A stretch of DNA of 44,679 bases from Escherichia phage vB_EcoS_UALMA_PCEc3, in the sequence record PQ314493, one strand, 5' to 3'. The notes beneath the pieces are model-generated. The model made no database searches and was not told the origin of the DNA. It saw only the letters and a list, made by a program, of their open reading frames with translations. A program made the translations under genes and the position numbers. Shown in pieces: positions 3,348 to 43,998 of this stretch (the first letter of the stretch is position 1; each line of letters begins with the position of its first letter).

Positions 3348-3854
3348 ATGAGCAAAGCAGCATTAAAGATGGGCGAGGGAAATTTCAAGGCGCTCTACAA
3401 CAAGAAGTATGGCGATATTGCTATGGTGGCAATCAACCGCAAGTACACACCTGAGGAAGTTTTCGATTTCGCAGTGAGATACTTCTCCTGGGCTGAGAGT
3501 GAGGCAATAAAAGCTATTGAGACGGCGGCATATCATGGCGTGGTTAGCGAGAACTTAGTGTACAAGCCGAGAGTGTTCACCCTAACGGGTTTGGCGCTCT
3601 TCATGGGTGTTAACATCAATAGATTCGCTCGCTGGCGTACTGAGGCTGGATACTCTGATGTGATGGAATTTATTGATAACGTAATCTACGAGCAAAAATA
3701 TCAACTTGGCGTTGCAGGTATCATCAACTCTACTATCGTTGGTAAAGAGCTTGGCATTGATAAGCCGCAGGAGATTAAGATTAGCAACAACTCTACAGCT
3801 AACGACGTTGATAGTATGAAGGAAGCGCTGGAGTCAGTGATTAGTAAGCTATAA
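3348..3854 (+). CDS. putative terminase small subunit
   Basis: 168-aa ORF immediately upstream of large terminase; position/size only. Confidence 0.45.
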   Translation: MSKAALKMGEGNFKALYNKKYGDIAMVAINRKYTPEEVFDFAVRYFSWAESEAIKAIETAAYHGVVSENLVYKPRVFTLTGLALFMGVNINRFARWRTEAGYSDVMEFIDNVIYEQKYQLGVAGIINSTIVGKELGIDKPQEIKISNNSTANDVDSMKEALESVISKL

Positions 3855-3963: not shown

Positions 3964-5529
3964 ATGTCTTTAGTATGGGAAGAAATGACCATTCAGGAAA
4001 AGATGGCTGTCAAGGCGATATCAGAACACAGCTTCGAGGGTTTCCTTCGCTGCTGGTTCCAGATCACGCAAGGCGAGCGATACATCCCCAACTGGCATCA
4101 CAAGTACTTGTGCAGAATTATCGACGAGATTATCGCAGGGGAGCGCAAAGACACCATCATTAACATAGCGCCAGGTAGCGGGAAGACGGAAATCACATCA
4201 ATCCACTTCCCCGTCTACTCGATGCTAAAGCTAAAGAAGGTTCGCAACCTTAATATCTCGTTTTCCGACTCAAACGTGAAACGCAATTCAAAGCGAGTCC
4301 GGGACCTGATATCGTCAAAGGAGTTCCAGGAGCTATGGCCTTGCAAGTTCGGAACAAATAAGGATGACGAAATTCAGATCGTCGACGACGGCGGAAAGGT
4401 TAGATTCGAGTCCATATCAGCATCAAAAGGAGGTAGAATTACCGGTACGCGTGGTGGATACATCACCGACACATACAGTGGGGCGGTAATGCTGGATGAC
4501 TTCGATAAGCCCGACGAGATGTTTTCATCTGTATACAGAGCTAAGAGTCACACGTTACTTGGGAACACAATTCGCTCACGTCGCGCAAGTTCGGTAAAAG
4601 GGAAGGCAACTCCAATTATCCAGATTCAACAGCGACTTCACGTCAATGACTCAACATGGTTCATGCTTAGCGGCGGTATGGGGATTGATTTTGATTTGGT
4701 GAAAATACCCGCACTGGTTACTGAGGATTACGTTGACACACTACCTGACTGGATTAAGCAGCAATTCATTGATGATGTGTTATCAAGCGAATACGTTGAG
4801 CGTGACGGAGTGAAGTATTACAGCTACTTTCCTGGGAAGGAGTCTGTACATGACTTAATCGCCATGTGGGATGCTGACCAATACACGTTCCTTAGTCAGT
4901 ACCAGCAGGAACCTGTAGCTCTGGGCGGTAATCTTATTAATGTGGATTGGTTCCAGCGCCTTAGTGATACATTTAGGCCCCCAGCTAAGTACGATTATAG
5001 ATTCATAACTTGCGATACTGCGATGACCACTAAAAGTTACAGCGACTTCTCAGTTCTGCAGCTATGGGGCTATAAGGATGCTAAGATTTACCTTATAGAC
5101 CAGCGCAGAGGTAAATGGGAGGCACCAGAGTTGGAAGCTGAACTACTGGACTTCGAGAGGAAATCAAGGGCAACCAGTCAGTCAGATGGCATCCTCCGTA
5201 AAATCATCATCGAGAAAAAGGCATCTGGTATCGGCCTAATTCAATCGGCAGGTAGAGTGATGCGAACACCGATAGAGCCATACGTTCCGGATAACGACAA
5301 GCTTACTCGCGTAATGAGCTCATTGCCTCAGATTAAGGCTGGCAATGTAGTTCTTCCAGAGTCATCGCCGTGGCTAAACGGATTGCTCACTGAGGTTGCG
5401 GCTTTTACGGCAGATGACTCGCATAAGCACGACGACCAAATTGACTGTCTAACAATGGCGGTAAACCTTGTACTTAACATCGCTGATGATCCTAAGGCGA
5501 GACTGATGCGCATAGCGGGAATGAAATAG
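3964..5529 (+). CDS. terminase large subunit
   Basis: 521 aa; P-loop-like NIAPGSGKTEIT near N-terminus; position before portal; TAG stop inside box copy 5. Confidence 0.8.
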   Translation: MSLVWEEMTIQEKMAVKAISEHSFEGFLRCWFQITQGERYIPNWHHKYLCRIIDEIIAGERKDTIINIAPGSGKTEITSIHFPVYSMLKLKKVRNLNISFSDSNVKRNSKRVRDLISSKEFQELWPCKFGTNKDDEIQIVDDGGKVRFESISASKGGRITGTRGGYITDTYSGAVMLDDFDKPDEMFSSVYRAKSHTLLGNTIRSRRASSVKGKATPIIQIQQRLHVNDSTWFMLSGGMGIDFDLVKIPALVTEDYVDTLPDWIKQQFIDDVLSSEYVERDGVKYYSYFPGKESVHDLIAMWDADQYTFLSQYQQEPVALGGNLINVDWFQRLSDTFRPPAKYDYRFITCDTAMTTKSYSDFSVLQLWGYKDAKIYLIDQRRGKWEAPELEAELLDFERKSRATSQSDGILRKIIIEKKASGIGLIQSAGRVMRTPIEPYVPDNDKLTRVMSSLPQIKAGNVVLPESSPWLNGLLTEVAAFTADDSHKHDDQIDCLTMAVNLVLNIADDPKARLMRIAGMK

Positions 5530-5544
5530 CACAAATTGCTAAAC
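5524..5544 (+). promoter_or_regulatory. palindromic box copy; -10 TATAGT 5564-5569
   Basis: aaatagcacaaattgctaaac; contains TAG stop of terminase large subunit. Confidence 0.6.
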
Positions 5545-13626: not shown

Positions 13627-16605
13627 ATGGCAACAAATGAATTAGCCGGAATCACACTAGCCGTAGACGTATCTCAGGTAGACAGGGGTACGCAATCCCT
13701 ACAGAAGTTCAGACAGGCCAACCAGCAAGCCGCTTCCGGTATTAGTGAGTTCGTCAATGCTGAGCAGGTTGCGAAAAACCAGGCTAGAGATACCGCTCAC
13801 GCACTTGCTGAGCAACAAGCATCTTTAGCTAAATTGCAAACTGCTATTGATCCAACTGCGGCAAAGTTCCGTAAGCTGCAAGAGGCGGCTGTAGGACTTG
13901 ATAAGGCATTTGCTGCTGGCGTAGTTCCTGATGAGGAGTTTTTCCGCTTAGGCGAGGCTCTTGAAACGCAGAATGCAAAGCTCGCCCGTTCACGTGCGGC
14001 GCTAACTGAAGAGGGTAGGGCGGCAGCTCAATCCGCAAAGGATAAGGCAAAGGCAAAGGCTGAATCTGATAGATTCATTGCTTCACTTGAGCGACAGGCT
14101 CAAGCGGCAACATTGACGCGTGAGGAGTACTTAAAGTTACAGGCTGCTCAGCTTGGTGTAAGCTCTCAGGCAGCACCTATTATTGACAGAATCGCAGAGG
14201 CTTCAGAGAGGGCTAATGTTCAATTAGCAAACCAAAGTAAGGCGTTTCTGAGATCAGGATTAAGTGCCGGTCAATACAGGAATGCTATCAGGATGCTTCC
14301 GGCACAGATAACTGATATTACCACGTCATTAGCTAGCGGCATGCCTGTTTGGCTTATTGCAATCCAGCAGGGTGGGCAGATTAAGGATAGCTTTGGCGGT
14401 ATTGGCAACACATTTAGATTCGCGCTTGCAGCCTTAAATCCATTCAATGTTGCTGTTGGTGTTTTGGGTGGGGCGCTTGTAGCTCTTGGTGTTGGTGCGG
14501 CTCAGGCTGAAAGTGAATTCAGGGCGTTAAACTCCGCAATTGCGTTCTCCAACAACTCTACAATAGCATCAATCTCGCAGGTTAGAGAGTTGGTTAGTTC
14601 TGTTTCTGATGCAACAGGAGCCACCAGGGGACTTGTGACTAGCATCGCAACGAGCCTTGTTGAGCAAGGAAACCTTACGCTGACGCAGATTGACAAGATT
14701 ACTAAATCGACCGCAAGATGGGCACAGCTGACAGGTAAGGATGCGAAGGAGATTACTGGTTACTATAACCAGATTGCAAGCGACCCAATACAGGGATTGG
14801 TTGATTTGGATAAGCGCTTTAACTTCCTCACGCAGGGGCAGTTGACGACAATCGAAAACCTGAGAAAGACAAAGGGAGAGGTTGAGGCCGTAACTGCTGC
14901 TATTGATATATTTAGCAAATCACAGGAAGCGAACCTTAACGATATTGCGGCCCAACTTACTCCTCTTGAATTGGCGTGGAATGACTTCAGGAAGTACATA
15001 TCTGATGTATGGGATGCAATTAGTCGCAGAACGGTTGGGGCGCTAAACCTGTTTGTTGATGTAATAGCTGGAACAATTGAACAGATTAAGGTCTTCATTA
15101 ATCAAGGTGACGTGCTGATCGGTGAGTTTGTAATTAGTGCGACACAAGCGCTGCAAAACATCCCTGGCCTTGGTGATACTGGGAATAATGTAATCTCTGA
15201 GCAGCAGAAGATTATCGATGCAGCCAAGAAGCAAAACCTTGAGTTAGAAAAGTCTATCAGAGAGCGAGATGCCAGAATCAGAGAAGGAGAGCTTGGTTAC
15301 GTTACTCGCAGGGAAAATCAGAATACGAATGAGCAATCGGGTACTGATGAGGAATTTGCGAAAAGGAGGAAGGCACTTAAGGACGAGCTTGACGCGATCA
15401 AGAAGAACAGGAAAGAGGAGAATGGGAGGGTTAAGGAGCAAAGGGATTTAACAATAGGTTATGAATCTGGCGTTTTAGCACTTCAGGCTCAACTCAAAGT
15501 TCTTCAGGAAAATAGGGATATTGGCGCAGTAATAAGCAACGAGCGAAAGCAGTACCTTCAGGAGGAAGCCAAATTCAGGATTCTTGAGCAGAGGCAACTT
15601 GATGGATCAATAACCAAAGAGCAGGCAAGGCTTCTAATTGAAAAGGATAAAGTTCTTGAGTTGGCAAGGCAGAAGGCTGAGCTAGGTGATCAGATTGTCT
15701 TGCAGGAGCGCGCCAATAAGTTAGCTGAAGATAACCGTAAGAAGATTCTTCAGATTAACAATGAGGCAAGCAATATTAATTTGGGTGCTGGCCTGTCTTC
15801 TCGGGAACAGCAGAGAGCCAAAGAGATTCAGGCTCTTCAGTCCAATCAGGTTAATGCTGGTGGTTCTGTTGATGATGTTGATTTCCAGCAATTACTGGAA
15901 GCAAGAAAGGAATATTACAAGCAGGAGGATAATCTTAGATCAGACTGGCAATCCGGTGTAACATCCACTCTCGCCGACTTGACAGAGAAGTACACTGACT
16001 ACAACCAGATTGCTAAGGACTTAACCGTTGCGGCATTCGATGGAATTACAGAACAGATTACAAACCTTGTAACCACTGGTGAGACTAATTTCAGAGATTT
16101 CACAGCAAGCATCCTCAAAATGATTGCGAAGATTGCAACTCAGTTACTTTTGGTTAAGGCTATAGAATCAACATTAACTAGTTTTGGCGGTGGGGGAGGT
16201 AATGCGTTTGGCTCTTTTGCATCTGCTATAGGCTTTGCTGGTGGCGGCTATACTGGTGATGGTGGGAAGTATCAGCCAGCAGGAACGGTGCACCGCGGTG
16301 AGTTTGTATTCACAAAAGAAGCGACAAGCAGAATTGGCGTGAAAAACCTTTACGCGCTGATGAAGGGTTATGCGAATGGCGGCGCTGTTGGTGGTCCTTC
16401 CGGTTATGCGAATGGTGGTTTGGTTTCTGGTGGAACTGATGTTAATGTTAGCGGCATCACTGTTAACGTAAACTCAGGTGTAGGTAGCGACCCAGAGCAA
16501 GCTAAGGCATTGCAGAACGGCGTTAAAGCTATCGTAGCGGAAGAGATTGCTCAATCATTCCAGCAAGGCGGAAAAGCTTACCAGTACCTGCGAGGATTCA
16601 ACTAA
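13627..16605 (+). CDS. tape measure protein
   Basis: 992 aa, coiled-coil-rich with Gly-rich C-terminal region; position after chaperones. Confidence 0.8.
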   Translation: MATNELAGITLAVDVSQVDRGTQSLQKFRQANQQAASGISEFVNAEQVAKNQARDTAHALAEQQASLAKLQTAIDPTAAKFRKLQEAAVGLDKAFAAGVVPDEEFFRLGEALETQNAKLARSRAALTEEGRAAAQSAKDKAKAKAESDRFIASLERQAQAATLTREEYLKLQAAQLGVSSQAAPIIDRIAEASERANVQLANQSKAFLRSGLSAGQYRNAIRMLPAQITDITTSLASGMPVWLIAIQQGGQIKDSFGGIGNTFRFALAALNPFNVAVGVLGGALVALGVGAAQAESEFRALNSAIAFSNNSTIASISQVRELVSSVSDATGATRGLVTSIATSLVEQGNLTLTQIDKITKSTARWAQLTGKDAKEITGYYNQIASDPIQGLVDLDKRFNFLTQGQLTTIENLRKTKGEVEAVTAAIDIFSKSQEANLNDIAAQLTPLELAWNDFRKYISDVWDAISRRTVGALNLFVDVIAGTIEQIKVFINQGDVLIGEFVISATQALQNIPGLGDTGNNVISEQQKIIDAAKKQNLELEKSIRERDARIREGELGYVTRRENQNTNEQSGTDEEFAKRRKALKDELDAIKKNRKEENGRVKEQRDLTIGYESGVLALQAQLKVLQENRDIGAVISNERKQYLQEEAKFRILEQRQLDGSITKEQARLLIEKDKVLELARQKAELGDQIVLQERANKLAEDNRKKILQINNEASNINLGAGLSSREQQRAKEIQALQSNQVNAGGSVDDVDFQQLLEARKEYYKQEDNLRSDWQSGVTSTLADLTEKYTDYNQIAKDLTVAAFDGITEQITNLVTTGETNFRDFTASILKMIAKIATQLLLVKAIESTLTSFGGGGGNAFGSFASAIGFAGGGYTGDGGKYQPAGTVHRGEFVFTKEATSRIGVKNLYALMKGYANGGAVGGPSGYANGGLVSGGTDVNVSGITVNVNSGVGSDPEQAKALQNGVKAIVAEEIAQSFQQGGKAYQYLRGFN

Positions 16606-33722: not shown

Positions 33723-34138
33723 ATATTAAAGATAAAGAAGATTACATTGAGTTCTACCCGGGTCCTGTTAAATCATGCCCAAAGGAGGATGACGAACAAA
33801 TCTTTTGCTCTGATTGGGTTAAGTATAACTACCCGGAGATGGTATTTTTCCACTGCGTAAATGAGGGGAAGAAAACCATTGGACAGGCAAGAAAGGACCA
33901 GGCTAAAGGGCTACTTAAAGGCGTGTCAGACTGCATGTTTCTTATTCCCGAGTCTCTGCGAGGCAAATACCCTTTCGGAGCTATAGAGCTGAAGAGGGCT
34001 GGCAAAACTCAGGCTAGCCCAGTCAGTGACGAGCAGAAGTCTTTCCTTAAAAGCGTGAGAGAATCAGGGGGTTTCGCTGGGGTTGCCTACGGTAGAGAGG
34101 GTTTTCTGGCAGCGTTTAGAGAAATGATTTCAAAATAG
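33719..34138 (+). CDS. VRR-NUC-like PD-(D/E)XK nuclease (putative)
   Basis: D...IELK...SDEQ motif arrangement; ATGA overlap with helicase stop. Confidence 0.5.
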   Translation: MNIKDKEDYIEFYPGPVKSCPKEDDEQIFCSDWVKYNYPEMVFFHCVNEGKKTIGQARKDQAKGLLKGVSDCMFLIPESLRGKYPFGAIELKRAGKTQASPVSDEQKSFLKSVRESGGFAGVAYGREGFLAAFREMISK

Positions 34139-34153
34139 CACTAATTGCTAAAC
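34133..34153 (+). promoter_or_regulatory. palindromic box copy; -10 TATAGT 34173-34178
   Basis: aaatagcactaattgctaaac; contains TAG stop of VRR-NUC gene. Confidence 0.6.
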
Positions 34154-37024: not shown

Positions 37025-37581
37025 AAATGACTAAATTATTTATCCTTAATGGCCCCGCTGGAGTTGGCAAGGACACTATAGCGGATATCATGGTTGAGAC
37101 TGGTGTAGCCAAAGAAAAGGTATCATTCAAGTCACCAATTTTTAACGTTGCAAAAGGAATGCTATCAAGCGATGAATTTGATGGATTCATCAAGAATTAC
37201 GACAATAGAGACTATAAGGAATCACCTCATGGATTTCTTGGAGGTATGACAGTTCGTGAATTTATGATTTGGATTAGCGAGTCTGTAATGAAGCCAGTCT
37301 TTGGTGATGATATTTTCGGTAAAAGGCTAGCCCAGTCACTTGGTTATGGTTGCTACATTTGCGCTGATGGTGGATTTGCTAGCGAGATTAAGCCACTGAT
37401 CTACGCTGGTGTTGAGGTCACGTTAATCAGATTGCATAGGGCAGGGTACACATTTGATGGCGATAGTCGCTCATACATTCACGGGGTGTGCGCAAGAGAA
37501 ATTGATGTTCGTGTTGTTGATTGTGATATTGATGGAACATCAGCATTTGTAAGGCACGTAATAAATAGCACGAATTGCTAA
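37021..37581 (+). CDS. P-loop nucleotide/nucleoside kinase (putative)
   Basis: Walker A NGPAGVGKDT; ATG 37021 overlaps upstream stop (track start TTG 37003); C-terminus NSTNC encoded by box. Confidence 0.55.
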   Translation: MKMTKLFILNGPAGVGKDTIADIMVETGVAKEKVSFKSPIFNVAKGMLSSDEFDGFIKNYDNRDYKESPHGFLGGMTVREFMIWISESVMKPVFGDDIFGKRLAQSLGYGCYICADGGFASEIKPLIYAGVEVTLIRLHRAGYTFDGDSRSYIHGVCAREIDVRVVDCDIDGTSAFVRHVINSTNC

Positions 37582-39462: not shown

Positions 39463-41046
39463 TCACCCCAGCAATCTCGGATTAATGTAAACTTTATCAC
39501 CAATCAGGCACGTATAGTTTTTCTCATCAAGCATTGGCAGTAGGTGATCTTTAATCTTCGTCATTACTCCAGCCTGAGCCTCGAATGGCTTAACCTTTCG
39601 CGCCGCTTCATACAATGAGCGAATGCCAACAACACCCTTACCGTTTTTACCCTGCTTGATCAGGATATCAATCAGCTTATTCATCTCGGCATTGTCGCCA
39701 GCGTGACCAGCCGCGTTGGCAGATGACAGATAAGTCTTGCTAAGTTCCTGGAACATGATTACAGCTTCCTGCATGGTGTCGAGTTCAATTTCTCTGGACT
39801 TCTGCGGGCTACCGCCGTTAGGGTTGAACCAGTTACGAACAGTATGGAGAACCGCCGCAATCCTGATTGCCTGTTTATCGAACTTACCAAGCGCGCCGCG
39901 CAACATTGTGTGTGAATACTTACCGCCGTCAGCAAGGTGCGGCTCCATTTCCTGACGCGCTCTGTTGAGGTATTTCATTGCCGAGTTACTCACTGTCAAT
40001 TTTACATCTTGCTCATTCATTATTTCGTGAACAAGACGGAAGTAGTCAGCCTTCAGGCAACCATCAATTGGCTCATACGTTGATTCGCCATTTTCATCAA
40101 CGAATACACGCTCACCCAAGAATGACTTTTCACGCACAAGCAGGAAGCGCTCCGATACACCGATACCACGTGCGCCAGCATTCATGATTGCATTGATTGT
40201 TTCATCCTGCGCAATTACCGATATGCAACCCATAGCAACGAAGCTCATGTTGTTCTCTGCGTTCGCACGCGCAATAGATACGTTACCAGCATCCCACGCT
40301 TTAAGCACAAGTTCGCTGTTCGTCTTCTTCGAGCCGTCACCGTAAGTCATTCCCAATAGTGAGTTAACACTCGTTGCCTCATCAGAGATGACCGCGAAGT
40401 TGCCCTGACGGTTGTTTATTCGTGCAAGACCTTCCGGTGTGGTATCTGATACCGGGAATACGATATCGCACAGTTTCTCGAGCTTCTCCTCTAACTCCTC
40501 TTTCTCCTCAAAAAGTGAGGCCATCTCTGATGGTGACTTTTCCTGTTTCATCTCTTTTGATAATGCAGACAGCTTTGCCATAATCTTTTTGCGCTCACGC
40601 TTCCGCACTTCATTAAGCCGCTCAGTCTCAGCGATCATTGGAGCAATTGAGAGCGAGTTAATTGCTGATTTACCTGTCGATGGCGGCTGGCTTGTTACGA
40701 CGTATAGCGAAGTCGGTTGCTGGGTTCCGTGATACTCTACTGTAAAACGTCCCAGCATGGCGGCAGAAATACACCCCATAAAGTGCATATAAGCTGAAGA
40801 CTCTGGAAATTGGACAGAACGGGCAATATTGGCTGACAGCTTACCAACAACATCAATGTCATTACCGAGTGAGATTACGGGATACTTGTCATTAGCCGCA
40901 TCAATCTCGACTGGTGCTTTCCAGAATGATTGAGACTGGCGATAGCCATTGGCATTAATGGCGACTCGCAGTGGCGGGAGGTTGTCTGCGGCAGCAATTG
41001 CCATAACCTGTTCAACAGATAGTTTATCTTCGTTGAAATCAAACAT
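39463..41046 (-). CDS. P-loop NTPase-like protein (deviant Walker A PSTGKS, Walker B VISDE); long paralogue
   Basis: 527 aa; N-terminal ~45 aa and C-terminal ~70 aa homologous to ORF 43459..43983. Confidence 0.55.
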   Translation of the reverse strand: MFDFNEDKLSVEQVMAIAAADNLPPLRVAINANGYRQSQSFWKAPVEIDAANDKYPVISLGNDIDVVGKLSANIARSVQFPESSAYMHFMGCISAAMLGRFTVEYHGTQQPTSLYVVTSQPPSTGKSAINSLSIAPMIAETERLNEVRKRERKKIMAKLSALSKEMKQEKSPSEMASLFEEKEELEEKLEKLCDIVFPVSDTTPEGLARINNRQGNFAVISDEATSVNSLLGMTYGDGSKKTNSELVLKAWDAGNVSIARANAENNMSFVAMGCISVIAQDETINAIMNAGARGIGVSERFLLVREKSFLGERVFVDENGESTYEPIDGCLKADYFRLVHEIMNEQDVKLTVSNSAMKYLNRARQEMEPHLADGGKYSHTMLRGALGKFDKQAIRIAAVLHTVRNWFNPNGGSPQKSREIELDTMQEAVIMFQELSKTYLSSANAAGHAGDNAEMNKLIDILIKQGKNGKGVVGIRSLYEAARKVKPFEAQAGVMTKIKDHLLPMLDEKNYTCLIGDKVYINPRLLG

Positions 41047-41101
41047 TACTTCTCTCCGTGTTGTTTCTGAGCGGCCATTATATCAACGACCGCTTATAAT
41101 T

Positions 41102-41122
41102 CATTATCAATTTGTGCTATTT
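41102..41122 (-). promoter_or_regulatory. box variant (minus orientation) upstream of NTPase-like gene
   Basis: minus-sense aaatagcacaaattgataa. Confidence 0.45.
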
Positions 41123-41471
41123 ACAGGTACTGGGCCTCAAAATGGTACGTCTGGCAAAGAGTGTAAAATCCAACATCCTCGCTACGGTAGAGCTGCCAGG
41201 CATTACCATCCTCATCGTAAATGTAACCAGCGGATTGACCTAGTCCAGCGTGAAGGTTAACCTGGTAACGTTTCTCTTCTTTAAAGTCTTTTTTAACTCC
41301 TGATTTATGGTTAACCTTAGTACAGTAAATAGTTTTGGTCTTAATGTATTTGCCGCGCTCTTCCAGGTTAATCCATTTGCCATCTTTCTTGATTTGTTCT
41401 ACACCATCTTTAACTCGAGCTTTGTATAATACGTTATCGTTGCTAATGAAGTTTTTAGTAATCGTTGTCAT
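41121..41471 (-). CDS. hypothetical Lys-rich protein (116 aa)
   Basis: ORF from track; stop overlaps box copy. Confidence 0.45.
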   Translation of the reverse strand: MTTITKNFISNDNVLYKARVKDGVEQIKKDGKWINLEERGKYIKTKTIYCTKVNHKSGVKKDFKEEKRYQVNLHAGLGQSAGYIYDEDGNAWQLYRSEDVGFYTLCQTYHFEAQYL

Positions 41472-41532
41472 TTTGTTTGCCTTTTTGTGTTTCGTTTCGA
41501 TGAGATGAATATACAGGAAAAGCCCCGAAGGG

Positions 41533-41553
41533 CTTTAGCAATTCGTGCTATTG
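41533..41553 (-). promoter_or_regulatory. palindromic box copy (minus orientation) followed by hairpin and conserved leader
   Basis: minus-sense aatagcacgaattgctaaag then gcccttcggggc then ctcatcgaaacgaaac. Confidence 0.5.
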
Positions 41554-41696
41554 CGGGCTTTTTCTATCGCCTTAAGCATAATTTCATGACTCTCCAGCAA
41601 GTCTTCGCGAAACCAATCACCGCAAGGCCAGCCCTTTCCGCTATAGGCACTTATGACCTCAAGATCGAAATAATTTATCTCAGATGGTAGAAGCAT
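41535..41696 (-). CDS. small protein (53 aa) ending NSTNC
   Basis: short ORF whose last codons are the box; not in track. Confidence 0.25.
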   Translation of the reverse strand: MLLPSEINYFDLEVISAYSGKGWPCGDWFREDLLESHEIMLKAIEKARNSTNC

Positions 41697-41698
41697 CA

Positions 41699-41935
41699 CT
41701 ACACCTCGTCAAAAGTTGCAATTCCAGGAATAAACATTCCAACCTTCCAGCCTGCAATGGAAATCCATCCAGAATTGTGCTTGTGCGGTCGCTCAGCGCC
41801 ATTAATCACCCACTCGTTCGGGATTGTCTTCCCGTTAATGATTAGTGGCTCAGCGTCGTATACATAGCCTTTTACGAATGGCGTTAAGACTTTCTTGTCG
41901 GTACTGGTGATGCAATTAGTGCAGCGAATTTTCAT
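41699..41935 (-). CDS. hypothetical protein (78 aa)
   Basis: ORF from track. Confidence 0.4.
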   Translation of the reverse strand: MKIRCTNCITSTDKKVLTPFVKGYVYDAEPLIINGKTIPNEWVINGAERPHKHNSGWISIAGWKVGMFIPGIATFDEV

Positions 41936-42120
41936 ATTTGAACCTCGACCTCATCCTCGAAAACTGTAGCTGGCTTACCAACTGAGTTAATAATGTCAAA
42001 TGATTTAAGTTCAGTATCCCTATCAACAACATCGTAGACCTTGCCAATGAAAAGGCCATAATCAATTTCATCTGACCCGTCCATGTCAATATCTTTAAAC
42101 TTAACTAACTTGATTTTCAT
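41932..42120 (-). CDS. hypothetical protein (62 aa)
   Basis: ORF from track, coupled to neighbours. Confidence 0.4.
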   Translation of the reverse strand: MKIKLVKFKDIDMDGSDEIDYGLFIGKVYDVVDRDTELKSFDIINSVGKPATVFEDEVEVQI

Positions 42121-42130
42121 ATCTCAATCC

Positions 42131-42310
42131 TCAAACAAATGGCAGGCATTCTGCGCAGCCAAGTCCATCGCAGCACAGGAATTCATCTTCTGACTGGAAT
42201 TGCCTGGCAATGTCAATATCAATCTTGTCGAGCAGAACAAGTGCGGTGTAAATCTCATTCAACCCAATCAGTGCGCATTCGTGGCGTAACTCGTCTTTAT
42301 CAATCTTCAT
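42131..42310 (-). CDS. small Cys-rich protein (59 aa, C-terminal CCDGLGCAEC)
   Basis: short ORF, first gene of minus-strand operon downstream of operator-like array; not in track. Confidence 0.3.
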   Translation of the reverse strand: MKIDKDELRHECALIGLNEIYTALVLLDKIDIDIARQFQSEDEFLCCDGLGCAECLPFV

Positions 42311-42399
42311 ATCTATCTCCTCGTTTTGATGAGTTAACTATATCCTCCATGACCCCCAATGTCTTTAGCAAAAAGTGCTACTCGTTAGATTTATGTATT

Positions 42400-42462
42400 G
42401 TTGCAGATATTGCAATGATTCACATGATTATTGCACATATGGCAATATTGCTTCAGATGCAA
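42400..42462. promoter_or_regulatory. array of operator-like palindromes (TTGCA/ATTGC half-sites)
   Basis: TTGCAgatatTGCAA (42400-42414), ATTGCacatatgGCAAT (42429-42445), ATTGCttcagatGCAAT (42446-42462). Confidence 0.45.
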
Positions 42463-42659
42463 TGATGTTTTTGATTGTTGCGAAAAGTGAAATGAAGTGG
42501 TGAGTGAGTGAATGAAAGATGGATGGACTACCATACAAGTTGATTTTGATTCCCGCTGAGCCATTTCTAAGCTGACACGTAACGCCTGTAGCGCGATGTA
42601 AGCCAATGCCTATCGTTACGCTAGTTACGCGAAGCTACGCCCAGACTTACACTATAAGT

Positions 42660-42885
42660 GCCTAATATATATATATATCTTCTTTCTATTATTATTATTA
42701 TTATTAATATTATTGTATGTAAGTCATGTAACAGGGGTCCTGGCGATATCTATATGTTTTTTCCTATCAGTTATAGCCGAGGCTATAATTTAGGGTATGG
42801 TGGGGGTGTTTTGGGGATGTTTGCCTCGTTACACGCACGACACGCTACTCACATTGAGCTATAGCTGGGCTGGCATGCCATTTCG
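42660..42885. repeat. AT-rich intergenic repeat region B (paralogous to 24300-24530)
   Basis: shared acattgagctatagctgggc block and (tta)n tract; multiple cgtaacg/gttacgc copies nearby. Confidence 0.5.
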
Positions 42886-42979
42886 CGTAACGACCCCCAA
42901 AAGTTACCAAGAATTACACTTGACTACACGTGTAAGTCGGGATATTATGGACTCAACTTAAACGAGAGGAGTGATAGAG

Positions 42980-43459
42980 ATGAGCGAGAAGGTAACATTA
43001 GGCCAAGTGATTCGTGAGATGGTAAAAGCAGCGCTTAAGTCTGAGGATAAGCAGATCAGCGTGACACTCAACAAGATTGAGAGCCTTATTGGTGCCGAAG
43101 ATGGTGGCCTACACAAGCTTAAGAGCTCATACATCTATAATACAACGGCTCGCATGCCTGAGTTGAGAGATGCAGGACTGAAGGCAACTCACCATTATGA
43201 TGAGGATGAGGGTGATAGTGAGTTTGGTGAAACCACTCTGGCTGGAGACAAGAAGCTGGTTATTAAGCTTATTCCCGGCACGGCAAACATTGGAATCAGA
43301 AAGAAGACCAACGACGCGGTCAAGGATGAGGCAATCACTGAGTTCAAGGCCAGGATCTGCAAGTTGATGCCAGACCTATCTGAGTATGAGGGTGAAGCGC
43401 TTGCAGCCGCTATGAAGGCCATTAAGGATTACCGTTTAATTATTGAGGAGATTAAGTAA
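42980..43459 (+). CDS. hypothetical protein
   Basis: track ORF 42971..43459; ATG 42980 after RBS gagagga. Confidence 0.45.
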   Translation: MSEKVTLGQVIREMVKAALKSEDKQISVTLNKIESLIGAEDGGLHKLKSSYIYNTTARMPELRDAGLKATHHYDEDEGDSEFGETTLAGDKKLVIKLIPGTANIGIRKKTNDAVKDEAITEFKARICKLMPDLSEYEGEALAAAMKAIKDYRLIIEEIK

Positions 43460-43983
43460 TGTTTGACTTTAACGAGGATAAACTGACAGAAGAGCAGGTA
43501 ATAGAGATAGCCAAGCAAGATGGAATGCCTCCGCTGCGAATTGCAATCAATGCTAACGGGTATCGACAGTCAACGGCGTTTTGGGGCTCGATTGATATCT
43601 CAGAGGTGTATAGTGGTGATGAGCTTGGTGTACTGATTAAAATCATCAGGAAGATAGGAGTTAACGGCAAAGTAGTTGTCGGCATCAGATCTCTATATGA
43701 AGGCGCTCGCAAGTTAAAGCCATTTGCTGGGCGCGATGGAATGATGCTAGTGATCAAGGACAAGCTAATTCCAGAGCTCGATAAGATGAATGTTACCTGT
43801 CTAATTGGAGATAAGGTTTACTTCAACCCCTCCTTGACGGATTTAAGCTGGCAACCAAACTTCAAAACTTGCGAAGGTGAGCATGTTAGTAGACTACCAT
43901 ACCACTTGCGGTACAGAGAGGAAGAGGTGGAGATGGCGATTGAGTTCCACCGGAAAGCTAAACCACTCCTGAACGGTGAATAG
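43459..43983 (+). CDS. short paralogue of the P-loop NTPase-like protein (lacks NTPase core)
   Basis: MFDFNEDKL...INANGYRQS N-terminus and VVGIRSLYE...TCLIGDKVY C-terminal block shared with 39463..41046. Confidence 0.55.
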   Translation: MFDFNEDKLTEEQVIEIAKQDGMPPLRIAINANGYRQSTAFWGSIDISEVYSGDELGVLIKIIRKIGVNGKVVVGIRSLYEGARKLKPFAGRDGMMLVIKDKLIPELDKMNVTCLIGDKVYFNPSLTDLSWQPNFKTCEGEHVSRLPYHLRYREEEVEMAIEFHRKAKPLLNGE

Positions 43984-43998
43984 CACGGATTGCTAAAC
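43978..43998 (+). promoter_or_regulatory. palindromic box copy; -10 TATAAT 44018-44023
   Basis: gaatagcacggattgctaaac; contains TAG stop of short paralogue. Confidence 0.6.

What the first reader, a model, noticed from the sequence alone, without database searches (positions are those of the whole stretch)
42400..42462. Tandem operator-like palindromes upstream of a minus-strand operon of small unknown genes
Three overlapping palindromes built from TTGCA/ATTGC half-sites (TTGCA-N5-TGCAA; ATTGC-N7-GCAAT twice) sit 90-150 nt upstream of a minus-strand operon. The operon starts with an unannotated 59-aa Cys-rich ORF (42131..42310, C-terminal CCDGLGCAEC) and continues through 41932..42120, 41699..41935 and 41121..41471. 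Such arrays typically bind dimeric repressors cooperatively. The half-site resembles but differs from the genome-wide box (TGCTA), suggesting a second regulatory circuit.
Basis: seen in the sequence. Interest (0 to 1): 0.5.

Follow-up and report, generated by a model that had tools for sequence, protein, structure and literature searches.

The report
Conserved palindrome array beside phage pac
Four conserved 15-bp palindromes (TTGC-N7-GCAA) in this T1-like phage are real protein-binding-type sites, but they lie about 30 bp from where DNA packaging starts, so they may mark the packaging site as readily as act as repressor operators.

Summary
The three palindromes are one motif, TTGC-N7-GCAA, at 42401, 42431 and 42448. 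A degenerate fourth lies at 42478, and the spacing is 30/17/30 bp. No shuffle gave three in this region. Across 16 distinct T1-like sequences the half-sites are nearly invariant while the inner spacers vary, which is the signature of dimer-binding sites. There is no conserved reading frame, no RNA family match and no unusual folding.

The window is the whole genome of a T1-like phage (Drexlerviridae), and the array lies in the packaging-initiation (pac) region:
- PhageTerm-mapped pac of phage TR1 and the record start of Rao1 both map to window 42523, 30 bp right of site 4.
- Phage T1's record starts 1 nt before its own TTGC pair.

The sites do not overlap any core promoter. The nearest lies about 78 nt upstream of the predicted start of leftward transcription.

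I could not identify the binding protein. Covariation tests with the small terminase (TerS), the DUF7174 winged-helix protein and a Cro-like protein were negative or inconsistent.

- Leading reading: pac-associated recognition array (0.38).
- Close rival: upstream operator of the leftward early promoter (0.33).
- Origin iterons are less likely (0.10).

It is a new member of a known kind and moderately interesting.

The parts
42401..42415 (.). Site 1, TTGCAGATATTGCAA
   Evidence: Arms are conserved in 16 distinct relatives. One arm is degenerate in phiA2-1, JeanPiccard and Rtp.
42431..42445 (.). Site 2, TTGCACATATGGCAA
   Evidence: Perfect in every relative examined.
42448..42462 (.). Site 3, TTGCTTCAGATGCAA, 2 bp after site 2
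   Evidence: Perfect in every relative, with a highly variable inner spacer.
42478..42492 (.). Site 4, degenerate here (TTGCGAAAAGTGAAA). It is a perfect TTGC-N7-GCAA in AugustePiccard, CY1, TH21, TR1, phiA2-1, JeanPiccard, Msk and Sf12.
42366..42380 (-). Promoter box of the leftward unit (TAGCACTTTTTGCTA on the minus strand, the variant with a T-rich centre)
   Evidence: This is the family-wide 21-nt repeat described for phage TLS (PMC11447400).
42337..42342 (-). -10-like hexamer TATAGT, 23 nt downstream of the box. The predicted transcription start is near 42330 (inferred).
42386..42393 (+). AGATTTAT, identical to the core of the P22 pac sequence quoted in the TLS paper. It is conserved as (A/G)G(A/G)TTTAT in relatives.
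   Evidence: The resemblance is only an 8-mer, so it is weak.
42416..42551 (+). Five same-strand TGATT repeats (42416, 42425, 42472, 42541, 42547) interleaved with and following the palindromes, and none on the other strand
   Evidence: GATT(G)-rich stretches occupy this position in T1, TLS, Roth71, L151 and L158.
42500..42510 (+). GTGAGTGAGTG, a purine-rich element. It recurs exactly in TLS; T1 carries only a related GTGAGAGGGG at this position.
42522..42523 (+). Inferred main pac cleavage position, by homology only. TR1's PhageTerm position 3615 and the first base of the Rao1 record both align to 42523.
42131..42310 (-). First gene of the leftward unit (59 aa, phrog_9053, function unknown)
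   Evidence: BEK2 and JeanPiccard have other genes here yet keep most of the array (BEK2 three perfect sites; JeanPiccard has one arm of site 1 degenerate), so it is unlikely to be the binder.

Best explanation
The four palindromes form a cooperative protein-binding array that belongs to the packaging-initiation (pac) region of this T1-like, headful-packaging phage.

Proposed mechanism:
1. Late in infection a phage protein binds the two pair units, sites 1+2 and 3+4. Within each pair the sites are 30 bp apart, roughly three helical turns, so close to the same face of the helix.
2. The binder is either the P22-gp3-type small terminase itself or an accessory dimeric DNA-binding protein that recruits it.
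3. The resulting complex positions the large terminase to make the first cut a few tens of bp to the right, with the main position near 42523.
4. Packaging then runs rightwards.

Shown: the array exists, is under selection as a binding site, and adjoins mapped or deposited genome ends.

Inferred: that terminase or an accessory factor binds it, and that binding directs the cut.
For: 1. The window is the complete genome of PsgS01F, a T1-like phage. T1-like phages package by the headful mechanism from a pac site in this region (PMC7718038; PMC11447400).
2. TR1's PhageTerm pac position (record 3615; PMC10450929) lies 30 nt right of its fourth palindrome. It aligns base for base with the first base of the Rao1 record, which corresponds to window 42523.
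3. Other deposited ends lie close by. SU57's end maps to about 42548, EC3a's start to 42567 and ZL19's start to 42570.
4. The T1 record carries an annotated terminal repeat at 1-2800. It begins 1 nt before the first palindrome of T1's own TTGC-N7-GCAA pair, which has 30-bp spacing.
5. The small terminase (3348-3854) is in the P22 gp3 family (PF16677; 28% identity to P22 gp3). From my own knowledge, P22 terminase cuts at several positions spread around its recognition site.
6. The array is embedded in strand-specific TGATT repeats that recur next to the genome end across the family.
7. The block from the box through the array is the best conserved part of the 670-bp intergenic region.
8. The sites overlap no core promoter.
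Against: 1. TLS and the Klebsiella phage Roth71 have homologous small terminases (47-50% identity) and the same genome layout, but no TTGC array.
2. The putative helix-turn-helix of the small terminase differs between this phage (VNINRFARWR) and Sf12-like phages (VGPNAIAKWR), although both carry identical half-sites.
3. Two-fold symmetric sites suit dimers. From my own knowledge, small-terminase rings are expected to read direct repeats.
4. No matching motif lies to the right of the cut, unlike P1 and SPP1.
5. How most deposited ends were determined is unknown, and some may simply copy the T1 convention.
6. Other lineages hold different palindromes at the same distance from the leftward promoter, which suggests promoter regulation instead.
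Confidence: 0.38

Rival explanations
1. The array is a set of upstream operators for the leftward early promoter. An early dimeric phage regulator binds the sites cooperatively as two dimer-of-dimer units. From about -78 to -155 it either activates or anti-activates the box-dependent promoter at 42380-42337, giving temporal control of the small early genes and possibly the helicase.
For: - The geometry is typical of dimeric helix-turn-helix operators: 5-bp arms, 5-bp spacer, half-site centres 11 bp apart.
- It has the same architecture as the promoter box TAGCA-N5-TGCTA.
- Arms are conserved while spacers vary.
- Site 1 is centred near -78.
- Other lineages carry different palindromes at the same position relative to the same promoter. 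TLS has 2x AGACCGATTGGTCT at about -67 and -81. T1 and Roth71 have TATTCCA-N7-TGGAATA at about -75 (positions are my own arithmetic).
- The first rightward gene, DUF7174, is predicted to be a winged-helix protein. One source names a homologue 'predicted transcriptional regulator'. Its helix 3 is invariant in every lineage with four sites.
Against: - The sites do not overlap the -10 or the box.
- T1 keeps its TTGC pair at about -144 and -174 from its first box promoter, right at the start of its record, and has a different palindrome set at -75.
- DUF7174's helix 3 does not covary. T1 (FKSSFITPIVSR) and L122 (ITPGYVRTIMNR) still have TTGC pairs, while TLS, with a helix like L122's, has none.
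- The Cro-like 157-aa protein does not covary either.
- The first leftward gene varies among phages that share the array.
Confidence: 0.33
2. The array is the iteron set of the phage replication origin, analogous to the four palindromic O-binding iterons of lambda ori. An initiator binds the four sites and opens the nearby AT-rich tract so that the DUF3987 helicase can load. The initiator would be the DUF7174 winged-helix protein, or the terminal domains of the DUF3987 helicase that are also present in its 174-aa truncated paralogue.
For: - There are four palindromic repeats in the divergent early intergenic region.
- A 90% AT tract lies at 42662-42715 and has equivalents in T1, TLS and Roth71.
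- The helicase paralogue is encoded next door.
- No origin has been identified in T1-like phages.
Against: - The AT-rich tract is 170 bp away, on the other side of the inferred pac cut.
- A second repeat family, TTAC[GA]C (7 copies against 0.9 expected), directly flanks the AT tract and is a better iteron candidate.
- TLS and Roth71 lack the TTGC sites but keep the AT tract.
- The structural similarity is weak (model pLDDT 72, Z no higher than 6.6).
Confidence: 0.1
3. The palindromes are binding sites for a host DNA-binding protein that the phage exploits, for example a tetrameric regulator that reads 15-bp interrupted palindromes. No phage-encoded binder would then exist.
For: - No early protein of this phage is shared specifically with T1-like loci and L122, which also carry TTGC pairs.
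- The XXXX-N7-XXXX form matches the general T-N11-A pattern of LysR-type sites. This comes from my own knowledge and is only a lead.
Against: - No sequence similar to the array region exists in 5,426 E. coli genomes or in the plasmid collection.
- The three-site pattern is absent from the 185,579 bacterial and archaeal species genomes searched.
- I could not name a host factor with this consensus.
- TLS infects E. coli without the sites.
Confidence: 0.05

Closest known systems
pac region of Salmonella phage P22 (recognised by the small terminase gp3)
   Same: The small terminase belongs to the same Pfam family (PF16677). Both phages package by the headful mechanism. Deposited or mapped ends of relatives scatter over roughly 170 bp around the array. 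From my own knowledge, P22 ends scatter in a similar way around its pac site. An AGATTTAT 8-mer is shared with the P22 pac core.
   Different: P22 pac is a single asymmetric 22-bp sequence inside the small terminase gene. Here there are four symmetric 15-bp sites in an intergenic region 5.6 kb upstream of the small terminase gene.
pac sites of phages P1 and SPP1 (clusters of short repeats bound by the small terminase or PacA)
   Same: Several copies of a short motif lie within about 100 bp of the first cut.
   Different: From my own knowledge, in P1 and SPP1 the repeats flank the cut on both sides, and P1's carry Dam methylation sites. Here the repeats are on one side only, they are interrupted palindromes, and they contain no GATC.
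Tandem operators of lambdoid phages (OR1-3 and OL1-3 with CI and Cro)
   Same: Three or four palindromic sites of 15-17 bp with conserved arms, placed in a divergent early control region. Pairwise spacing is compatible with cooperative dimer binding.
   Different: Lambda operators overlap the -35 and -10 of the promoters they control and lie next to the repressor genes. Here no core promoter is overlapped, no cognate repressor was found, and the phage is virulent.
Lambda ori iterons (four palindromic O-protein sites beside an AT-rich region)
   Same: There are four palindromic repeats, an AT-rich tract in the same intergenic region, and a winged-helix candidate protein encoded nearby.
   Different: Lambda iterons abut the AT-rich region and lie inside the O gene. 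Here the tract is 170 bp away, and another repeat family lies between them.
The 21-nt direct repeat of T1-like phages, aaATAGCACnnnTTGnTAAAA (described for TLS, PMC11447400)
   Same: It has the same 5+5+5 palindromic architecture, and its half-site differs from the array's at one position (TAGCA against TTGCA).
   Different: The box is oriented with transcription. It always lies 22-23 nt upstream of a TATAGT-like -10 and is dispersed over the genome. The array sites are clustered, have no -10 at that distance and have a variable centre.

Membership tests
pac (packaging initiation) site of a headful-packaging phage | Lies at or next to the position of the first terminase cut | tested here: met
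   Met by homology only. TR1's PhageTerm position and the Rao1 record start both map to window 42523, 30 bp from site 4. The EC3a, ZL19, SU57 and T1 ends lie within 0-80 bp. There are no read data for this phage itself.
pac (packaging initiation) site of a headful-packaging phage | Bound specifically by the small terminase subunit | not testable with these tools
   This needs gel shift or footprinting experiments with purified small terminase (3348-3854).
pac (packaging initiation) site of a headful-packaging phage | The recognition motif changes together with the small terminase type across related phages | tested here: not met
   The putative recognition helix of the small terminase differs between this phage and Sf12-like phages that have identical half-sites. 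TLS and Roth71 lack the motif. Caveat: the DNA-reading residues of this terminase family are not established.
Tandem repressor operators (lambda OR/OL type) | Several palindromic sites with conserved arms and dimer-compatible geometry | tested here: met
Tandem repressor operators (lambda OR/OL type) | The sites overlap the core elements of the regulated promoter | tested here: not met
   The nearest site is centred about 78 nt upstream of the predicted start. The box is at 42366-42380 and the -10 at 42337-42342. The rightward promoter is at 42920.
Tandem repressor operators (lambda OR/OL type) | A cognate dimeric DNA-binding protein is encoded nearby and covaries with the sites | tested here: inconclusive
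   DUF7174 is winged-helix-like and adjacent, and its helix 3 is invariant wherever four sites occur. T1, L122 and TLS break the pattern. The Cro-like protein shows no pattern.
Iteron-type replication origin (lambda ori type) | Repeated initiator sites directly adjoining an AT-rich unwinding element | tested here: not met
   The AT-rich tract at 42662-42715 is 170 bp from site 4. TTAC[GA]C repeats lie between them and flank the tract.
Iteron-type replication origin (lambda ori type) | Supports initiation of replication | not testable with these tools
   This needs origin mapping or a plasmid replication assay.
Promoter box of T1-like phages (21-nt repeat) | Consensus TAGCACnAATTGCTA, oriented with the gene, 22 nt upstream of a TATAGT-like -10 | tested here: not met
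   The array sites have T rather than A at arm position 2, variable centres and no -10 at 22 nt. None appears among matches to the box at up to 3 mismatches.

The most novel reading that the evidence does not exclude
The array is a dual-purpose switch. A dimeric phage protein bound to the two pair units would set the activity of the leftward early promoter and also gate terminase access to the adjacent pac cut. Transcription state and the timing of packaging initiation would then be coupled through one nucleoprotein complex. This would be a protein-based counterpart of the methylation control of P1 pac. The different palindrome families at the same spot in TLS (AGACCGATTGGTCT) and in T1 and Roth71 (TATTCCA-N7-TGGAATA) would be interchangeable specificity modules of that switch.
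Probability: 0.1. Interest if true: 0.7.

Novelty: new member of a known kind. Interest (0 to 1): 0.42.

Why it matters
- From my own knowledge, T1 is a classical phage whose pac site was located genetically in the 1980s. None of the papers I could search gives its recognition sequence. The TLS paper assigns pac only through a 6-mer resemblance to P22.
- A conserved, sharply defined four-site array next to the mapped cut is a concrete candidate. It can be tested with a simple plasmid-transduction or gel-shift experiment.
- T1-like phages are generalised transducers, notorious laboratory and fermentation contaminants, and therapy candidates. Knowing what marks their DNA for packaging, or what times their early genes, has practical use.
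- If the array instead proves to be an operator, it would reveal a second regulatory circuit alongside the box promoters in a family whose transcription programme is almost unstudied.

Tried and rejected
1. **RNA or DNA structure.** There is no Rfam match above threshold (best E = 0.14). Folding is no better than shuffles (z = -0.06).
2. **Coding sequence.** The GenBank CDS at 42391-42564 overlaps the array. ORFs over the array differ in strand and length among relatives. Variable columns fall 12/16/8 on codon positions 1/2/3. It is not coding.
3. **T1's packaging start site in phage lambda.** From memory, Drexler (1984) placed a site where T1 starts packaging between lambda genes P and Q. No cluster of the motif exists there or anywhere else in lambda. 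The test is uninformative.
4. **Satellites or host copies.** There is no similarity in E. coli genomes or plasmids, and the three-site pattern is absent from the 185,579 bacterial and archaeal species genomes searched.
5. **Covariation with DUF7174, the small terminase and the Cro-like protein.** All were inconsistent.
6. **Phylogenetic profile.** No early protein of this phage is shared only with the other lineages that carry TTGC sites.
7. **DnaA box.** TGATTCACA (42416-42424) between sites 1 and 2 matches the DnaA box at 8 of 9 positions (consensus from memory). It is not conserved in relatives, so I rejected it.
8. **Sigma-54 promoter reading of the box.** The spacing is 2 bp too short and a -10 lies 22 nt downstream, so I rejected it (my own reasoning).
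9. **TTGC pair inside a head-morphogenesis gene.** It occurs in contigs L071 and L179 but is absent from a relative with a 93% identical protein. It is probably incidental.
10. **Wider locus retrieval.** Searches of the viral collection with protein queries returned too few loci to extend the comparison.
11. **Roberts et al. 2004 (the T1 genome paper).** The library does not hold it, so I do not know how T1 position 1 was defined.

Full report
**What the window is.** The 44,679-base window is the complete genome of the record 'Pseudomonas phage PsgS01F' (PP134917.1), reverse-complemented and rotated. It is a T1-like phage of the family Drexlerviridae. Over the 57% of the 41000-43500 query that aligns (window 41000-42566), it is 95.5% identical to Escherichia phage EC3a (Braunvirinae, Guelphvirus). 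The finding lies in a 670-bp region without conserved genes (42311-42980), between a leftward set of small genes and a rightward set.

**The observation.** The sequence is as described. All three palindromes are instances of TTGC-N7-GCAA, at 42401, 42431 and 42448.
- The motif occurs 5 times in the genome against 1.38 expected.
- No shuffle out of 5000, of either the intergenic region or the local 111 bp, gave three matches.
- No other 4-mer-arm/N7 palindrome clusters anywhere in the genome.
- A fourth copy at 42478-42492 has one degenerate arm here (GAAA) but is perfect in many relatives.
- Start-to-start spacing is 30, 17, 30, so the array is itself symmetric.

The sites do not overlap each other. 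The 59-aa ORF is annotated in GenBank and belongs to a PHROG of unknown function.

**Evidence of selection.** The array is present, with the same spacing, in Braunvirinae, in Rogunavirinae (Sf12, Rtp) and in the Nouzillyvirus TH21.
- In an alignment of nine intergenic regions, the stretch from the promoter box through the array is the best conserved part.
- In 16 distinct array sequences the arms are nearly invariant, while the inner seven bases, especially of sites 3 and 4, vary freely. That is the pattern expected for sites read by a dimeric protein.
- Sites 2 and 3 are perfect everywhere. Sites 1 and 4 occasionally lose one arm.
- The region is not an RNA family and does not fold better than shuffles.
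- It does not carry a conserved reading frame, and substitutions show no third-position excess.

**Promoter context.** The 'genome-wide box' is the oriented sequence TAGCACnAATTGCTA (13 perfect TAGC-N7-GCTA against 0.78 expected).
- At the box promoters that precede genes it sits exactly 22 nt upstream of a TATAGT-like -10 (23 nt at the copy next to the array). It therefore spans about -49 to -35 and is centred near -42. There is no canonical -35 (positions are my arithmetic).
- The same repeat was described for phage TLS as a 21-nt direct repeat of unknown function (PMC11447400).
- The leftward unit is driven by such a promoter: box 42380-42366 and -10 at 42342-42337.
- The palindromes are centred at about -78, -108, -125 and -155 from the predicted start, so they overlap nothing in the core promoter.
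- The rightward genes have a near-consensus sigma-70 promoter at 42920 (TTGACT-17-TATTAT), about 430 bp away.

**The packaging connection.** T1-like phages package by the headful mechanism from a pac site located in this untranslated region (PMC7718038; PMC11447400).
- The TR1 record labels a feature over the homologous array as the initial packaging site.
- Its paper gives the PhageTerm position as 3615 (PMC10450929). That position is 30 nt to the right of TR1's fourth palindrome.
- The Rao1 record begins at exactly the homologous base. Both correspond to window 42523.
- EC3a starts at the equivalent of 42567, ZL19 at 42570, and SU57 ends at about 42548.
- The T1 reference record is annotated with a terminal repeat at 1-2800. 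It begins one base before the first palindrome of its own TTGC-N7-GCAA pair, spaced 30 bp.
- The Rtp record ends inside site 2, and Sf12's ends 9 nt before site 2.
- The small terminase (3348-3854) belongs to the P22 gp3 family.
- Five TGATT repeats, all on one strand, are interleaved with and follow the palindromes. Comparable GATT(G)-rich stretches sit at this position in T1, TLS, Roth71 and metagenomic relatives.

I do not know how most deposited ends were determined. Only TR1's and SU57's come with a stated method.

**Variation across the family.**
- TLS (Tempevirinae) has no TTGC sites. It has two abutting AGACCGATTGGTCT palindromes just upstream of the same leftward box.
- T1 and the Klebsiella phage Roth71 have TATTCCA-N7-TGGAATA there.
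- T1 has in addition one TTGC pair further right, at the start of its record.
- Contig L122 has one pair with 31-bp spacing.

So the basic unit appears to be a pair of palindromes about three helical turns apart, and this phage carries two such units. Every lineage also has some palindrome centred about 67-81 nt upstream of the leftward start. That regularity favours a promoter-related role. T1's placement of the TTGC pair at its genome end favours a packaging role.

**Search for the binding protein.**
- *Small terminase.* Its putative helix-turn-helix differs between phages with identical arrays.
- *Cro-like 157-aa protein upstream of the primase gene.* It shows no association: Roth71 shares a glutamine in the putative recognition helix with this phage (TLS has lysine there) but lacks the array.
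- *First leftward gene.* It varies among phages that carry the array.
- *Shared early proteins.* None is shared specifically with the other TTGC-bearing lineages.
- *Host copies.* No related sequence exists in E. coli genomes, in plasmids, or as the three-site pattern in the bacterial and archaeal species genomes searched.

The binder remains unknown.

**Weighing the readings.** Proximity to mapped ends, the T1 arrangement, the embedding in family-wide strand-specific repeats and the lack of promoter overlap favour a packaging-initiation role. The two-fold symmetry of the sites, their kinship with the promoter box, the equivalent palindromes at the same promoter distance in other lineages and the failure of terminase covariation favour an upstream operator. 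I place them at 0.38 and 0.33.

An origin role (0.10) is weakened by the 170-bp gap to the AT-rich tract, and by the TTAC[GA]C repeats that flank that tract directly. A host-factor site (0.05) has no positive support.

**Comparison with known systems.** In kind this is either a pac-region recognition array (closest to P22, P1 and SPP1) or a tandem operator set (closest to lambda OR/OL). It fails one defining test for each family:
- no covariation with the terminase;
- no overlap with a core promoter;
- no adjacency to the AT-rich tract.

I therefore do not file it firmly under any of them.

**Verdict.** The array itself appears undescribed in the literature I could search. The T1 genome paper was not available. 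I judge it a real, conserved and previously unremarked cis-element of a known kind, in a classical phage family. It is moderately interesting mainly because it offers a directly testable candidate for the T1-type pac signal.

Noticed in passing
window, e.g. 259-273, 979-993, 5527-5541, 34136-34150, 37566-37580, 41536-41550(-), 43981-43995: The promoter box TAGCACnAATTGCTA lies at a fixed 22 nt (23 at one copy) upstream of a TATAGT-like -10, with no -35 at the normal distance. The box is therefore centred near -42, the position of a class II activator site. The TLS paper describes the repeat but not this fixed relation, and what reads the box is unknown. Its outer arms resemble the Lrp consensus YAGHAWATTWTDCTR; I recalled that from memory and did not test it.
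   Followed up: partly
[not shown]
   Followed up: partly
window 43459-43983 (+) compared with 39463-41046 (-): The 174-aa protein is a truncated paralogue of the DUF3987 helicase. It keeps about 50 N-terminal and about 75 C-terminal residues and lacks the ATPase core. It is present in all lineages with four sites and was not detected in T1 or TLS. It could modulate or target the helicase.
   Followed up: partly
window 42575-42960: A tract of about 90% AT (42662-42715) is flanked by TTAC[GA]C repeats: 7 copies against 0.9 expected, at 42616, 42625, 42647, 42829, 42885, 42914 and 42930. T1, TLS and Roth71 have an equivalent AT tract with different flanking repeats (ATTACGC and GATTAACAC in T1; GTGAACA in TLS). 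This is a candidate replication origin, and some repeats overlap the rightward promoter.
   Followed up: partly
window 42391-42564 (-), 42658-42864 (+), 42854-42961 (+): GenBank annotates three small genes inside the intergenic region. The first overlaps the array and shows no coding signature: variable columns fall 12/16/8 on codon positions 1/2/3, and ORFs are inconsistent among relatives. It is probably spurious. The other two were not tested.
   Followed up: partly
whole window (record PP134917.1): The record names Pseudomonas syringae pv. garcae as host and coffee leaves as source. Yet the genome is a typical T1-like coliphage, up to 95-99% identical in places to Escherichia phage EC3a, and nearly all relatives infect E. 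coli or Shigella. The host assignment deserves checking.
   Followed up: no
L069 (TLS) 49791-49818; L015/L016 (T1 end-to-start junction); L192 (Roth71) end: Other lineages hold different palindromes at the position of the array. TLS has 2x AGACCGATTGGTCT. T1 and Roth71 have nested TATTCCA...TGGAATA repeats. Contig L151 has five direct ATTATTCCA repeats plus one AGACCGATTGGTCT. The motif families look like exchangeable modules.
   Followed up: partly
window 3417-3433 (inside the small terminase gene) and 16124-16138: There are two isolated perfect copies of the motif. The one in the small terminase gene has the extended form ATTGC-N7-GCAAT. It is kept in close relatives with the same protein sequence but not in Sf12-like phages. 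Significance is unknown, and about 1.4 copies are expected by chance.
   Followed up: partly
L071 9678-9723 and L179 5883-5928: A pair of perfect ATTGCA-N5-TGCAAT palindromes, 31 bp apart, lies inside a head-morphogenesis gene of a distant T1-like metagenomic lineage. It is absent from a relative whose protein is 93% identical. It is probably incidental, but it has the same pair spacing as the array unit.
   Followed up: partly
window 41516-41550 (-): At the internal box promoter, a GC-rich hairpin followed by a T run (AAGCCCTTCGGGGCTTTTCC) fills the 22-nt gap between the box and the -10. One short stretch therefore looks like both a terminator for the upstream unit and part of the next promoter.
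   Followed up: no
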